A DNA stretch of 64,000 nt, taken from assembly GCF_009914755.1 (NCBI RefSeq), contig NC_060929.1; one strand, written 5' to 3'. Below, piece after piece: positions 29,431 to 41,629 of the stretch (position 1 is the stretch's first letter; the number at the start of each line of letters is the position of its first letter). The notes beneath the pieces were generated by a model, which did no database searches, was not told where the DNA came from, and worked only from the letters and a program-made list of their open reading frames with translations. Source of the DNA: the human T2T-CHM13v2.0 reference genome, Homo sapiens. The position numbers and the translations under genes were made by a program.

Positions 29431-30257
29431 GTGAGCCTACTTACTTGGGGCTTCCTTTTAACACCCCATATCAGATTATTGGCTTTACCCTTCAAAGTAT
29501 TCAAAATCCAAACATTTATCTCACCTACTACTTCTGCCCTGGTTCAAGCCCCCGTCATCTCTTGCATAGAATATTGCCAAAGACCTAAGTGGTCTCCTGC
29601 TCCATCTCCGCTCCTTATGAAGAAAATCCCCTACAAGTCCATTGTCTCAGAGGCTGACCAAAATCAAAGAAAGCTTCCATCCAGGCAAGACACAGAGTTG
29701 AGAAAGGAGAGCCATTTTCCTCTATAGGAAGCAAGAAATTCACCCAATATCCAGGTTTGTGAACAATGACCTTCAGACGCCTGAGGAAACATGCAGGTGA
29801 GGTTACCACCTTGGGGCAGACCCAGGTATCAGACCATCAGTGACTCAGCTTCTGGGAAGTGCCAAGACACCAGAAAGGGAAGTAAAATATCCTTTATGGG
29901 ATACAGACAACTTACTAGTGTCAAGATAATGTATTGAGGTGTTAATGTATGTTTTGTTTATCTCCCAACTTCAGGTAGAAAACCAGACTTTTATGCTCCT
30001 TTGCCTCAGAGGAGTTTGGGTAGTAAAGACTGAGGACAATCTTAGGTCCACGCCTGGTGTTGTGGGAAAAGGAGATCCTGTTACTGGTAGAGGAAAGGGC
30101 CTCAGTAATGTAAGGGATTGAATATCCTGCCAGGCCTGCAGTATGAGGATTCAGCATTGTATAAGATTTGATTTAAATGAAATAAAAACATGGTATTTTT
30201 TGCTATATTCATTTTCTATCACTGTGGAACTAATAACCACAAATTTAGTGGCTTTTT

Positions 30258-30879
30258 CCTTTGTTTTTTTTTTTTTTTTGAGATGGAGTCTCGCTCTGCC
30301 GCCCAGGCTGGAGAGTAGTGGCGTGATCTGGGCTCACTGCGACCTCCGCCTCCCGGGTTCAAGCAATTCTGCCTCAGCCTCCCGAGTAGCTGGGACTACA
30401 GGCTGCGTGCCACCATGTCAGGCCAGTTCTTTTTTTTTTTTTTTTTTTTTTTTTTTGAGACGGAGTCTCGCTCTGTTGCCCAGGTCGGACTGCGGACTGC
30501 AGTGGCGCAATCTCGGCTCACTGCAAGCTCCGCTTCCCGGGTTCACGCCATTCTCCTGCCTCAGCCTCCCGAGTAGCTGGGACTACAGGCGCCCGCCACC
30601 GCGCCCGGCTAATTTTTTGTATTTTTAGTAGAGACGGGGTTTCACCTTGTTAGCCAGGATGGTCTCGATCTCCTGACCTCATGATCCACCCGCCTCGGCC
30701 TCCCAAAGTGCTGGGATTACAGGCGTGAGCCACCGCGCCCGGCCCAGTTCTGTATTTTTAGTAGAGACAGGGTTTTACTGTGTTGATCAGGCTGGTCTTG
30801 AACTCCGGACCTCAGGTGATCCACCCGCCTCGGCCTCCCAAAGTGCTGGGATTACAGGACTGAGCCACCGCGCCTGGCC
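30258..30879 (-). mobile_element. AluS in the MER41 A-tail, split by an AluYb8
   Basis: Outer Alu arms ~30258-30423 and 30752-30879. Confidence 0.85.
30431..30744 (-). mobile_element. AluYb8 (human-specific)
   Basis: Diagnostic 7-nt duplication (ggactgcggactgcagtgg); CpGs intact; long pure T-tail; TSD CAGTTCT at 30424-30430 and 30745-30751. Confidence 0.92.
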
Positions 30880-30985
30880 ACTTATTTTTCTTTTAAGTGA
30901 AAACCAAGTTTATTAGGCAAGCAAAAGAATAACAAATGGCTACTCCACAGGCAGAGCAGCAGCTTAGGCTACTTCATCAAGGATA

Positions 30986-37507: not shown

Positions 37508-37523
37508 AAATAAAAATCATACA

Positions 37524-38779
37524 ATCTCCCTCTCCCTCTCCCTTTCCCTTTCCCCCTCCCCCTCCCCCTCCGCCTCCCTCTCCGCACGGTCTCCCTCTGA
37601 TGCCGAGCCGAGGCTGGACTGTACTGCCGCCATCTCGACTCACTGCAACCTCCCTGGCTGATTCTCCTGCCTCAGCCTGCCGAGTGCCTGGGATTGCAGG
37701 CACGCGCCGCCACGCCTGACTGGTTTTCGTATTTTTTGGTGGAGGCGGGGTTTCGCCGTGTTGGCCAGGCTGGTCTCCAGCTCCTGACTGCGAGTGATCT
37801 GCCAGCCTCGGCCTCCCGAGGTGCCGGGATTGCAGATGGAGTCTCGCTCACTCAGTGCTCAATGTTGCCCAGACTGGAGTGCAGTGGCGTGATCTCGGCT
37901 CGCTACAACCTCCACCTCCCAGCCGCCTGCCTTGGCCTCCCAAAGTGCCGAGATTGCAGCCTCTGCCCGGCCGCCACCCCGTCTAGGAAGTGAGGAGCAT
38001 CTCTGCCTGGCCGCCCATCATCTGTGATGTGAGGAGCGCCTCTTCCCGGCCGTCATCCCGTCTAGGAAGTGAGGAGCGTCTCTGCCCGGCCGCAACCCTG
38101 TCTGGGAACTGAGGAGTGTCTCTGCCCCGCCGCCACCCCATCTGGGAGGTGAGGAGCGTCTCTGACCAGCCGCCCCGTCTGAGAAGTGAGGAGCCCCTCC
38201 ACCCGGCAGCCACCCCGTCTGGGAAGTGAGGAGCCCCTCCGCCCAGCAGCCGCCCCATCTGGGAGGTGTACCCAACAGCTCATTGAGAACGGGCCATGAT
38301 GACAATGGCGGTTTTGTCGAATAGAAAAGGGGGAAATGTGGGGAAAAGAAAGAGAGATCAGATTGTTACTGTGTCTGTGTAGAAAGAAGTAGACATAGGA
38401 GACTCCATTTTGTTCTGTACTAAGAAAAATTCTTCTGCCTTGGGATGCTGTTAATCTATAACCTTACCCCCAGCTCTCTGAAACATGTGCTGTGTCCACT
38501 AAGGGTTAAATGGATTAAGGGCGGTGCAAGATGTGCTTTGTTAAACAGATGCTTGAAGGCAGCCTACTCGTTAAGGGTCATCACCACTCCCTAATCTCAA
38601 GTACCCAGGGACACAAACACTGAGGAAGGCAGCAGGGCCCTCTGCCTAGGAAAACCAGAGACCTTTGTTCACATGTTTATCTGTTGACCTTCCCTCCACT
38701 ATTGTCCTATGACCCTGCCAAATCCCCCTCTCCCAGAAACACCCAAGAATGATCAATAAATACTAAAAAAAATAAAATA
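37524..38779 (+). mobile_element. SVA (older SVA_A/B-like, short VNTR) inserted at the Alu tail
   Basis: Hexamer, Alu-like region, VNTR, SINE-R, A-tail; TSD AAATAAAAATCATACA at 37508-37523 and 38780-38795. Confidence 0.95.
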
Positions 38780-41629
38780 AAATAAAAATCATACACACAT
38801 CACATATAAATATAGACAGAAGAAGATCCAGTAATTTTAAGATTTTTCATTTGCCAGTTTTTTTAATTACTGACTCCAGGGTGGAGCCCTTGGAGGAACA
38901 GGGCCAGGAAAGCATGAAGTTCCTATGGCCTAATAAGCAGGCACAGCTGAAAGGCAAAACATCCCTCAAAATTAAGGGTCTCATTTTTTACCAGATCCTG
39001 GATCCCAAAGAAAGAGAAGTGCTATGGAATAAGACAATGCAGTGATTTTGCCATGCATTTGATTGCAAAGCAATACAAAGCCAATCAGCCCATTCTGTAA
39101 TTAGCCCATCTTTCATGAGAGTCTTACCTCTCAGTAGCGGGTAGGGACATTTTCATTTCTTTTAGGTAGCCAAAGGCATGCTTCTCTAATCCAAACATGC
39201 AAAGAGCTATCTCCCCATAACTTCCATTAGCCAGCCCCAGAAGTACATTTCCTATCTAGTTATTACAACCAAAGCTCTCTCATAGTGTGAAGTAATTTCT
39301 GCTAACCCCAAAAGTCAAAACCATTAGATAAGGCAATGCAAAATACAACAGAGCTTTAGATTTTGAGAAGGATTTATCTGCTTTCAATTCCAGGGGTTTC
39401 ATGAGGAAAACAGAGGTTTTTCCCAAAACAGGGTCTGTGGTGCCTCCTCTGTTTTTCCCAGGGAGTCCCATAAAACTTGAATATCCACTTTTAAAAAGCT
39501 GACTTTTAACCATAGTACTCTTTAAAAAATCTTTTTAAGTCTCTTATTACATGACTTTAGCCAGGCCAAACAGCCAATATTTTTGTGCTCAGAGAAAGGA
39601 AAATTCAAGACAGTTAGTGGAGGGGAAGAGAATCAACAAATAGTGAAGGTCACACAGACAAACCAGAAAGGACTCATTCACTAAGCAAGGAATTGAACCC
39701 TGAACCTGGGCCACCATTAAGAAAAGATAAAGCCTTAGCCACTAAGCTACAGCATTGGGCAGTTTCTGATGCTTTTTCCCAGAAGGAGCCTAAAGCATCC
39801 AATTTTGTGCTTTGCAATGGGTTTTAACTGCTCAAGACAATTTTTAGAGCTGACTATGACATGAACCCTAAAATTCCTTTTCCCTGGAAAGGGGAGAGCA
39901 AGCAAAAGTACTGCCACATGATTACAAGGACATTTTTCAGTGTGTGGTCTCTGGGCAAGATGTTTGTCCTGAGTAATAGAAAAGATAAGAAAGGGAAAGG
40001 AAAGGGAGAAAAGCATTGCCTGAGGCAGGGTGGGGAAGGCAAGGTGCTCAGGGAGGCCAGAGAAAGACCCACCCAATGCAGTGACACTGAATCAAAAGTT
40101 CAGGCAGCCACTTGTCAGTTGGGGAGGGATCTTTTCCAGCAGCTCCGTCAGCTCTAAAGTTTCCCCCTTTGGGGATGAAAAAGCTCCCCATGCCCCACGG
40201 TCCTGTACATGACTAACCCTGTCACCCATAGCCTTCAGCAAAGAATGCAAGGCAGATTAATCCAAAGAGAATAGTGGTTAACTTCCCATAATAACAAATC
40301 TATTTTTAACCAAAAGGGACTTTACTGAGAGGGTGGTCTCTAACCCCCTAAATCTTAGGGAGGACTCTAACCTTCCTAAGTTCAGCCTTGACCCTAAGTT
40401 TGGTCAAGCATCCTTGCCTTTTATTAAGAGGGGCTTTTAACCCACTCTGTCTTAGGAGAGACTCTAACTCCCCTAAGCTGGGCCTCTAACCCAATCCCAT
40501 CCTTTACCCAGGTACAGCACCACTTACCCAGAGTCAGCCAATCAGTGCTGCAGTCTGTTTCCTTTGAGTCCGGGGTCTCCTCAGTATCACTTCTTTGGGA
40601 TTCATCAGGAAGATGTTACCAGAAAGGGGTCCTGATCCAAACCCCAAGAGAATGTTCTTGGACCTCACACAAAGAAGAGTTTGAGGCAAATTCATAAAGT
40701 GGAAGCAAGTTTATTAGGAAAGTAAAGGAATAGAGAATGGCTACTCCATAGGCATAGTAGTCAATTTAGTGGCTTTTTAACAGATACTTTTTTTCTCCAA
40801 CCCCTCCTACCAACATACATTATTTATCTTACAGCTCTGTATGTCAGAAATCTGACATGGATCCCACAGGACTAAAATCTAGATGTTGGCAGGCTGGATT
40901 CTTTTGGAGGTTCTAAAGGATAATCTGTTTTCTTGCTTATCTAGGTGTTGGCAGAATTCAGTTCATTGTGGTGGTTATTTTCCTGCTGTCAGCTAAAGGC
41001 TAGTCTCAGCTTCTAGAGGTAACCCATGTTCTCTGGCTTATGGCCCCCATCCTCCATCTGTGAAGCCAGCAGGGGCAGGTTGAGTCCTTCTCATGTTCTG
41101 AATCTCTCCTGCCTCTTTTTCCATTACATCTTTCTAACCAACTCTCTGCCTTCCTTTTCCACTTCCATTTCTACCCAGATAATCCAGGATAATCTCCCTA
41201 TTTTAAAATCAAATGGTTATCAAACTGAATTCCCTTTTGCCGTGAAGCAACATATTCATAAGGCTTTATACCAGAGGACAAAGATCACAGGGGTCAAAAT
41301 TCTGCCCACCATAAATTTGCTCGCCTGAATTCCTGCTTGCAAATTCATACAAACTACATATGAAAAAAATGGAAATATATTTACCAAAAAAATCAATATT
41401 TCTATCAAGATACTGAGATTAAAGGTCTGGGTGTGTTTTTCTTATATCTTACAGATATTCTACACAATGACCATGTAAATACTATTTTTAGAAGAATATG
41501 GAACGTTAACTAGACATCAACATCTAATAATGGTCTGTTTAATACCAAGCTATATAAGTGGAAGATAGTTTCTATTAATTCCCTTCTTTGGTTAACTTGC
41601 TGACCTTTCCTTAATAATGTATTTCTAAT

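What the first reader, a model, noticed from the sequence alone, without database searches (positions are those of the whole stretch)
30242..40778. MER41 endogenous retrovirus copied as an mRNA by LINE-1 (processed ERV), not integrated as a provirus
Seen in sequence (minus strand): the 5' LTR lacks U3 and starts at 40762, about 30 nt downstream of where the TATA-like TATAAA sits in the intact U3 of the other LTR, i.e. at the predicted transcription start. The 3' LTR lacks U5 and stops ~15 nt after AATAAA (~30893), followed by an A-rich tail later invaded by Alus. The whole 10.5-kb block is flanked by an exact 16-bp duplication (AATTTAGTGGCTTTTT, 30242-30257 and 40763-40778) whose minus strand reads TT/AAAAAG, the L1 endonuclease consensus, and it splits an older MLT1 LTR. 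Established: retroviral integrase makes 4-6 bp TSDs and complete U3-R-U5 LTRs; the R-U5...U3-R-polyA form is known for HERV-W processed pseudogenes. Inference: MER41 RNA was also mobilised in trans by L1, a second dispersal route for an LTR family co-opted as interferon-responsive enhancers. The copy also fossilises the MER41 TSS and polyA site. I do not know whether this route has been described for MER41.
Basis: partly seen in the sequence, partly recalled or inferred. Interest (0 to 1): 0.8.

Follow-up and report, generated by a model that had tools for sequence, protein, structure and literature searches.

The report
L1-copied MER41 retrovirus transcript, one of many
This 10.5-kb block is a DNA copy of a MER41 endogenous-retrovirus RNA pasted in by the LINE-1 machinery rather than by a retroviral integrase, and many other MER41 copies in the same genome look the same, although the field describes this route for HERV-W only.

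Summary
On the minus strand the element starts at 40762 with R-U5 and no U3. It ends with U3-R at 30895, 14 nt after AATAAA, followed by an A-rich remnant split by Alus. An exact 16-bp duplication that opens with TT|AAAAAG flanks it.

It is not a one-off. Of 39 other loci found with its R-U5, 24 lack U3, and 23 of 25 U3-less copies (window included) start within about 3 nt of one position. That position lies 27-29 nt after the TATA-like box of U3-bearing copies. In a second sample chosen by internal sequence, 8 of 16 readable 3' ends stop at R plus an A-rich tail and 8 run on into U5. Seven copies have clear 10-16-bp duplications; four share the retroviral splice donor, and two of these are exact GT-AG splices.

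The family is MER41, shown by the 43-bp indel carrying a STAT-type site. Four literature searches found the route described only for HERV-W, called "the sole HERV group" so mobilised. Verdict: new member of a known kind.

The parts
40763..40778 (.). Target-site duplication, copy next to the 5' end of the element. On the minus strand it reads TT|AAAAAGCCACTAAATT with the flank.
40697..40762 (-). 5' R (66 nt), with the first base at 40762 and AATAAA at 40715-40710. No U3 lies upstream.
40614..40696 (-). U5 (83 nt), ending ...GGTAACA as in the proviral LTRs L011 and L022.
40590..40607 (-). Decayed primer-binding-site-like stretch, 6 nt after U5. Better-kept relatives read TGGTGACCACGAAGGGAC. The tRNA assignment (Arg) is recalled, not tested.
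40526..40529 (-). Retroviral 5' splice donor GG|GT; the last exon base is 40528. Four spliced retrocopies elsewhere use it, and so does the DMXL1-DT exon 40528-40663.
   Evidence: hub annotation
34171..40613 (-). Internal region, repeated genome-wide at 77-83% identity, with no Pfam domain in any frame. Later insertions: Alu 35947-36254 (-), Alu about 37209-37507 (+), and SVA 37524-38779 (+) with a 16-bp TSD at 37508-37523 and 38780-38795.
35438..35440 (-). Internal splice acceptor; the AG is at 35440-35439 and the exon starts at 35438. The spliced retrocopy L064 and the last exon of DMXL1-DT both use it.
   Evidence: hub annotation
34682..34684 (-). Second internal splice acceptor; the AG is at 34684-34683 and the exon starts at 34682. 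The spliced retrocopy L020 uses it exactly, and L025 joins 18 nt upstream of it.
34173..34189 (-). Polypurine tract GAAAGGAAGGTGGGAAA, just upstream of the 3' LTR. It fixes the sense strand.
33722..34170 (-). U3 of the 3' LTR, starting TGTCAGAGG at 34170. It holds TATAAA at 33740-33735 and the 43-nt MER41B-type segment with a TTCNNNGAA site at 33785-33827.
30987..33721 (-). Later insertion of a 5'-truncated L1, with its poly(A) at 30987-30999, between the TATA box and R of the 3' LTR. Its own flanking duplication is imperfect (about 8 of 11, by eye).
30962..30986 (-). Last 25 nt of U3, between the L1 and R.
30895..30961 (-). 3' R (67 nt) with AATAAA at 30914-30909. It ends ...CACTT at 30895, no U5 follows, and 53 of 67 columns are identical to the 5' R.
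30880..30894 (-). A-rich tail remnant (AAAAGAAAAATAAGT).
30258..30879 (-). Alu (30264-30879) with a nested younger Alu (about 30431-30745), inserted into the tail. A 6-nt remnant (CAAAGG) lies at 30263-30258.
30242..30257 (.). Target-site duplication, copy next to the 3' end of the element.

Best explanation
A full-length polyadenylated transcript of a MER41 provirus was reverse-transcribed at a LINE-1 endonuclease nick (TT|AAAAAG) inside an older repeat. The transcript started at the LTR transcription start and was cleaved about 14 nt after AATAAA in the 3' LTR. The result is an R-U5-internal-U3-R-poly(A) copy flanked by a 16-bp duplication. Later insertions enlarged it from about 5.5 kb to 10.5 kb: an L1 in U3, two Alus in the tail, and two Alus and an SVA inside.

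The same route produced a large share of the MER41 copies that carry internal sequence in this genome, including copies of spliced RNAs.

Shown here: the anatomy, the recurrence and the splicing. Inferred: that L1 ORF2p was the enzyme, from the target motif, the tail and the duplication length.
For: 1. Anatomy of the window copy.
2. Orientation: a polypurine tract next to U3, a PBS-like stretch after U5, then TATA, R with AATAAA, and the tail.
3. Recurrence at the 5' end: of the 39 non-self loci scored, 24 lack U3 and 15 have it. 23 of the 25 U3-less copies, window included, start within about 3 nt of one position, and their upstream flanks are unrelated to each other. In 13 of 15 U3-bearing loci a TATA-like box lies 27-29 nt upstream of that position.
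4. Recurrence at the 3' end: of the 14 U3-less loci fetched with 10 kb, 9 end at R position 66-72 followed by an A-rich tail and none shows U5 after the 3' R. Two have a disrupted 3' R and 3 have no 3' LTR within reach.
5. Second sample, chosen by internal sequence: 8 R-then-tail, 8 R-then-U5 and 6 unreadable, out of 22.
6. Duplications next to both ends: window 16 nt, L031/L077 15, L021 13 (1 mismatch), L029 12 (1 mismatch), L020 11, L025 11-14, L028 10.
7. A TT|AAAA-like site precedes the duplication, by eye, in the window, L014, L015, L024, L025, L029 and L031.
8. Contrast with the proviral form: L011 and L022 have 3' LTRs that run through U5 to ...GGTAACA, and L022 has a 4-bp duplication.
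9. RNA origin: L020 and L064 join the GG|GTAAGT donor exactly to AG| acceptors. L025 and L028 use the same donor.
Against: - The window's own poly(A) tail is only a 15+6-nt A-rich remnant broken by Alus.
- My automated duplication search does not separate cognate from non-cognate flanks for 4 of 10 loci (L014, L015, L024, L030). The flanks are A-rich: cognate lengths were 7-16, and 90 non-cognate pairs gave a mean of 8.8 and a maximum of 13.
- The two samples come from the best-scoring 40 of 2317 and 2401 first-look candidates, so the fractions are not a census and lean towards relatives of this copy.
- No orthologous empty site from another primate could be examined.
- Only 2 of 11 paralogues of the flanking repeat span the junction.
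Confidence: 0.93

Rival explanations
1. An ordinary integrase-made provirus that later lost U3 of the 5' LTR and U5 of the 3' LTR through two separate deletions.
For: Old proviruses are often truncated, and this one is heavily invaded by L1, Alu and SVA.
Against: The 16-bp duplication abuts the R start exactly and follows the tail. The same two breakpoints recur in independent loci with different flanks. In this family a proviral copy has a 4-bp duplication and complete LTRs.
Confidence: 0.02
2. A retrocopy made from MER41 RNA by some reverse transcriptase other than L1 ORF2p, for example retroviral RT without integrase, inserted at a chance break.
For: No enzyme can be identified from sequence alone. 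The family also has proviral copies, so retroviral RT was present at the time.
Against: A TT|AAAA target motif, a poly(A) tail at the junction and 10-16-bp duplications are the L1 target-primed signature as defined for HERV-W. They are seen in the window and in several relatives.
Confidence: 0.03
3. A DNA-level event, such as a segmental duplication or recombination between MER41 copies, that happens to mimic R-U5...U3-R.
For: None specific.
Against: The copies are dispersed on many chromosomes with unrelated flanks. The phylogeny is star-like, with end branches of about 0.1. The spliced forms need an RNA step.
Confidence: 0.01

Closest known systems
HERV-W (HERV17/LTR17) processed pseudogenes made by LINE-1 (Pavlicek 2002, not seen; Grandi 2016 PMC5016936 and Grandi 2020 PMC6995185, passages)
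   Same: Both have a 5' R-U5 end, a 3' U3-R end, a poly(A) tail, a TT/AAAA site and a variable long duplication. Both make up a large share of their family: 135 of 213 for HERV-W, against 24 of 39 and 8 of 16 in my two samples. Some copies in both come from spliced RNA. Both families are placed in the HERVW9 supergroup.
   Different: The family differs: MER41 has its own LTRs and a PBS-like stretch. MER41 is older, given as 45-60 My in PMC9963469, and end branches here are about 0.11. The internal region shows no Pfam retroviral domain in 4 copies. Several distinct splice acceptors are used. I found no description in print.
Processed pseudogenes (retrocopies) of cellular mRNAs
   Same: Both are L1 target-primed copies of a capped, spliced and polyadenylated Pol II transcript, and the copy does not carry the promoter that lies upstream of the transcription start.
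   Different: Because the template is retroviral, the copy carries a complete U3 promoter and enhancer near its 3' end, followed only by R and the tail. Each retrocopy therefore seeds one potential regulatory LTR.
L1-dependent non-autonomous retrotransposons such as SVA
   Same: Both are long RNAs with no detected coding capacity of their own, amplified to many copies by L1 in trans.
   Different: SVA has no proviral form. In MER41, proviral and L1-made copies coexist and are interspersed on the tree.

Membership tests
L1-made processed pseudogene of an endogenous retrovirus (criteria quoted in Grandi 2016 after Pavlicek 2002) | The 5' LTR is reduced to R-U5 and starts at the transcription start. 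| tested here: met
   The window starts at 40762 with no U3. The same start is seen in 23 of 25 U3-less copies, 27-29 nt after the TATA-like box.
L1-made processed pseudogene of an endogenous retrovirus (criteria quoted in Grandi 2016 after Pavlicek 2002) | The 3' LTR is reduced to U3-R and ends at the polyadenylation site. | tested here: met
   R ends at 30895, 14 nt after AATAAA, and no U5 follows. Proviral LTRs of the family continue for about 83 nt more.
L1-made processed pseudogene of an endogenous retrovirus (criteria quoted in Grandi 2016 after Pavlicek 2002) | [quoted passage not shown] | tested here: inconclusive
   In the window only 15+6 A-rich bases remain around an Alu insertion. 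Clear tails are present in relatives such as L025, L028, L069 and L082.
L1-made processed pseudogene of an endogenous retrovirus (criteria quoted in Grandi 2016 after Pavlicek 2002) | [quoted passage not shown] | tested here: met
   The site reads TT|AAAAAG and the duplication is 16 of 16 bases, one base above the quoted range.
MER41 (MER41A/B LTRs with MER41-int) | The LTR subfamilies A and B differ by a 43-bp segment that carries the STAT1 site (PMC9963469 passage). | tested here: met
   Six related LTRs lack exactly 43 nt of the window's U3 (33785-33827), and that segment contains TTCCTGGAA. The window's LTR is the longer, B-like form.
MER41 (MER41A/B LTRs with MER41-int) | Alignment to the curated Dfam/Repbase MER41 consensus sequences. 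| not testable with these tools
No repeat library is held.
Integrase-made provirus | Two complete U3-R-U5 LTRs and a 4-6-bp duplication. | tested here: not met
   U3 is missing at the 5' end, U5 is missing at the 3' end, and the duplication is 16 bp. L022 shows what the proviral form looks like.

The most novel reading that the evidence does not exclude
MER41 is a second human endogenous-retrovirus group that LINE-1 amplified on a large scale. About half or more of the loci carrying MER41 internal sequence are L1-made retrocopies of genomic-length or spliced MER41 RNA. This runs against the printed statement that HERV-W is the sole group so mobilised. No retroviral protein domain was detected in the internal region, so MER41 RNA behaved as an L1-dependent non-autonomous retrotransposon. 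Each retrocopy deposits one complete interferon-responsive U3. HERV-W and MER41 sit in the same supergroup, so an RNA property shared by that lineage may explain why L1 captures them.
Probability: 0.5. Interest if true: 0.7.

Novelty: new member of a known kind. Interest (0 to 1): 0.62.

Why it matters
HERV reviews state that only HERV-W was spread by LINE-1. A second, older and related family spread the same way changes how MER41 copy number, age estimates and regulatory-LTR dispersal should be read.

- LTR-LTR divergence dating does not apply to these copies.
- Their 5' ends have no promoter.
- Their 3' ends carry a full U3 with the STAT-type site.

The shared breakpoints also map the MER41 transcription start, polyadenylation site, splice donor and at least three acceptors from genomic fossils. 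Comparing MER41 with HERV-W makes the question of why L1 captures some retroviral RNAs directly testable.

Locally, the last two exons of the lncRNA DMXL1-DT are built from this retrocopy's own donor and acceptor.

Tried and rejected
- Coding capacity and strand. Pfam scans found no retroviral domain: 28 ORF fragments, 18 whole-frame translations of the window's internal parts with stops read as X (only a sub-threshold 15.7-bit chance hit), and 12 translations from three other copies. Orientation therefore rests on the polypurine tract, PBS-like stretch, TATA, AATAAA and splice sites.
- Automated duplication search. It is confounded by A-rich flanks and does not separate 4 of 10 loci from the non-cognate control.
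- 5'-truncated retrocopies, tested on three candidates. L062 is a provirus with an internal deletion. L064 is a spliced copy. Only L063 starts inside the element, next to an acceptor, and its duplication is unclear.
- The 16-nt inverted match 35939-35954 / 37508-37523. It resolves into a 12-nt match of internal sequence plus Alu-tail bases. About one such 12-mer pair is expected by chance in 6 kb (my arithmetic).
- Genome-wide census. Not possible: the own-genome search scores only 40 candidates per query.
Pavlicek 2002 is not held.
- No supplementary files were opened. Supplementary tables of HERV surveys could list such loci.
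Full report
**The observation**

The 16-mer AATTTAGTGGCTTTTT occurs exactly twice in the 64-kb window, at 30242-30257 and 40763-40778. 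With up to two mismatches allowed, shuffles gave a mean of 0.22 matches, and 4 of 100 shuffles reached two.

Read on the minus strand, the block between the two copies has this order:
- R, 40762-40697, with AATAAA at 40715-40710.
- U5, 40696-40614, ending ...GGTAACA.
- A decayed primer-binding-site-like stretch, 40607-40590.
- A splice donor GG|GTAAGT, with the last exon base at 40528.
- The internal region.
- A polypurine tract, 34189-34173.
- U3, starting TGTCAGAGG at 34170, with TATAAA at 33740-33735.
- A later L1 insertion, 30987-33721.
- The last 25 nt of U3, 30986-30962.
- R, 30961-30895, with AATAAA at 30914-30909.
- A 15-nt A-rich remnant, 30894-30880.
- An Alu carrying a nested Alu, 30264-30879.
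- Six more bases, then the second 16-mer.

There is no U3 at the 5' end and no U5 at the 3' end. The two R copies are identical at 53 of 67 aligned columns. With its flank the duplication reads TT|AAAAAG... on the sense strand, which is the L1 endonuclease motif quoted for HERV-W pseudogenes.

The 'about 30 nt from TATA' cannot be measured in this copy because the L1 sits in between. It holds in relatives, as shown below.

**The flanks**

The right flank belongs to an old interspersed repeat (40 of 320 first-look candidates scored, about 75-80% identity). In 2 of the 11 paralogues fetched (L051, L058), homologues of the window's left and right flanks are contiguous and the 16-mer region is present once. 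The other 9 showed no left-flank homology. This is a paralogous stand-in for the empty site. It supports the view that one copy of the 16-mer was duplicated on insertion. The family name MLT1 was not testable.

**Which family**

No repeat library is held, so I tested a published family trait. A review passage (PMC9963469) says MER41A differs from MER41B by a 43-bp deletion that removes the STAT1 motif, and that the family entered 45-60 My ago.

Among the related LTRs, six (L017, L019, L026, L034, L036, L038) lack positions 344-386 of the window's U3. In L019 the subject coordinates are contiguous across the gap (626/627), so the gap is exactly 43 nt. That segment (33785-33827) contains TTCCTGGAA, a TTCNNNGAA site. 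The window's LTR is therefore the B-like form. Repbase-based tables place MER41-int in the HERVW9 supergroup together with HERV-W.

**It is a class, not a single case**

First sample, chosen by R-U5. A search of the window's own genome with R-U5-leader (40500-40762, minus strand) scored 40 of 2317 candidates, 39 of them non-self.
- I fetched 10 kb around the first 20.
- Against separate blocks of the window element, 6 of 20 and 9 of 19 have U3 directly upstream of R. 14 of 20 and 10 of 19 do not. In total 24 of 39 lack U3.
- 23 of the 25 U3-less copies, window included, begin within about 3 nt of the same base. That base is the first of a 12-mer that most often reads GGCTGCTCTGCC. Their upstream flanks are unrelated to each other; the exceptions are L016 and L025.
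- In 13 of 15 U3-bearing loci a (C/T)ATAA(A/G) box starts 27-29 nt upstream of that base; in the other two the box is mutated. This is the spacing expected of a Pol II start site.

3' ends of the 14 U3-less loci with 10 kb:
- 9 end with U3 followed by R that stops at position 66-72 and is followed by an A-rich tail (L014, L015, L020, L021, L024, L025, L028, L029, L030).
- 2 have a disrupted 3' R (L017, L027).
- 3 have no 3' LTR within reach (L012, L013, L016).
- None has U5 after the 3' R.

By contrast, the U3-bearing L011 and L022 have 3' LTRs that run on through U5 to ...GGTAACA, and L022 has a 4-bp duplication, GTTT.

Second sample, chosen by internal sequence. From the hits to the 1.77 kb upstream of the 3' LTR, 24 loci reached the end of that block. 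I dropped two whose alignment stopped 20-30 nt short and fetched the 3' LTR region of the other 22.
- In 8, R is followed by an A-rich tail (L063, L064, L068, L069, L070, L077, L081, L082).
- In 8, R runs on into U5 (L062, L066, L071, L073, L074, L076, L078, L079).
- 6 are unreadable because of an offset, an insertion or no match (L065, L067, L072, L075, L080, L083).
- L077 is the 3' end of the element whose 5' end is L031. The two ends share a 15-nt duplication preceded by TT.

**Duplications**

Clear duplications adjoining both ends:

| Locus | Length | Source |
|---|---|---|
| Window | 16 | |
| L031/L077 | 15 |, by eye |
| L021 | 13 (1 mismatch) | |
| L029 | 12 (1 mismatch) | |
| L020 | 11 | |
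| L025 | 11-14 | |
| L028 | 10 |, by eye |

For L014, L015, L024 and L030 only short or doubtful matches exist. My automated measure does not beat the non-cognate control there: 90 pairs gave a mean of 8.8 and a maximum of 13, because the flanks are A-rich.

**RNA origin**

Four copies share the retroviral donor.
- L020 joins ...CTTTGG directly to ACTGA.... This corresponds to the window's donor at 40528 and to the acceptor whose AG is at 34684-34683, so it is an exact GT-AG removal.
- L064 joins the same donor exactly to the acceptor at 35438.
- L025 joins it 18 nt upstream of the first acceptor, and L028 joins it to a point near 39245.
- L020, L025 and L028 are U3-less with tails and duplications. 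L064 has an R-plus-tail 3' end, but its 5' end was not fetched.

**Timing**

A tree of R-U5-leader from 18 copies is star-like, with a median end branch of 0.11. The three spliced copies were left out because they lack the leader. The labels 'processed' and 'proviral' need 5 changes on the tree, as many as shuffled labels do (5.2). Both routes therefore ran during one burst.

At a recalled neutral rate of about 2.2e-9 per site per year, this is roughly 45-50 My. That agrees with the published 45-60 My and with the 21% difference between the window's two R copies. This date is an inference.

**Coding capacity**

No Pfam family was found in the internal region: in 28 ORF fragments, in all six frames of the window copy with stops read as X (one sub-threshold chance hit), in the sense frames of L015, L024 and L029, or in the antisense frames of L024. 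The internal parts are nevertheless family repeats at 77-83% identity. This suggests, but does not prove, that the amplified RNA was non-coding.

**Mechanism**

- Shown: the template was a capped-end to poly(A)-site transcript, sometimes spliced, and the copies sit in long duplications at TT|AAAA-like sites.
- Inferred: L1 ORF2p nicked the target and primed reverse transcription on the poly(A) tail, as established for HERV-W and for cellular processed pseudogenes.

The rivals are contradicted by the recurrence, the duplications, the unrelated flanks and the splicing. They are a deleted provirus, a different reverse transcriptase, and a DNA-level duplication.

**What is known**

- Grandi 2016 (passages) lists the defining features and counts 135 processed pseudogenes among 213 HERV-W loci.
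- Grandi 2020 (passages) reports HERV-W pseudogenes that lack an intron-like pre-gag region, and none in New World monkey ERV-W.
[quoted passage not shown] Four full-text searches found no paper that describes this route for MER41:
- MER41 with 'processed pseudogene', which gave 14 papers. I read passages in 6 of them (PMC4724089, PMC5753468, PMC9963469, PMC9148063, PMC11359688, PMC8108463); none ties processed pseudogenes to MER41. The other 8 I saw only in the listing.
- HERV-W, LINE-1 and 'other HERV'.
- MER41-int or MER41I with L1-mediated terms.
- U3-lacking ERV pseudogenes.

Pavlicek 2002 is not held, Costas 2002 was not seen, and no supplements were opened, so prior mention cannot be excluded.

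**Verdict**

The finding widens from one locus to a family-wide route. It is a new member of a known kind, not a new mechanism.

Noticed in passing
window 40528-40663 and 35377-35438 (minus): The last two annotated exons of the lncRNA DMXL1-DT lie inside this retrocopy in sense orientation. The intron between them uses the retroviral donor (40528) and an internal acceptor (35438). The spliced retrocopy L064 on another chromosome uses exactly the same pair. The upstream exon begins at an AG acceptor inside U5 (AG at 40665-40664).
   Followed up: yes
window 34171-40613; L015, L024, L029: No Pfam retroviral domain is found in any frame of the internal region in four copies, although the region is a conserved family repeat. 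The amplified MER41 internal sequence may be non-coding.
   Followed up: partly
window 30987-33721: A 2.7-kb 5'-truncated L1 sits between the TATA box and R of the 3' LTR. Its flanking duplication is imperfect (about 8 of 11 by eye).
   Followed up: partly
window 37508-38795: A plus-strand SVA (37524-38779) is flanked by a perfect 16-bp duplication and inserted just after an Alu.
   Followed up: partly
window 35939-35954 and 37508-37523: A perfect 16-nt inverted match. It resolves into a 12-nt match of internal sequence plus Alu-tail bases, about what chance gives in 6 kb.
   Followed up: yes
L063 (G000:C13:44863406-44865699): This copy begins within 1-2 nt of the 35438-type acceptor with no upstream leader, and ends in U3-R plus a tail. 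It may be a 5'-truncated retrocopy or a chimeric transcript spliced in from a host exon.
   Followed up: no
L018, L023 and others, about 6 nt after U5: The better-kept copies carry TGGTGACCACGAAGGGAC as primer-binding site. From memory this fits tRNA-Arg, but it was not tested.
   Followed up: no
L011 (G000:C23:25953207-25963206): A proviral copy with two full LTRs but only about 1.6 kb between them, with an internal deletion joining early and late internal sequence. I saw no matching short duplication at its ends.
   Followed up: no
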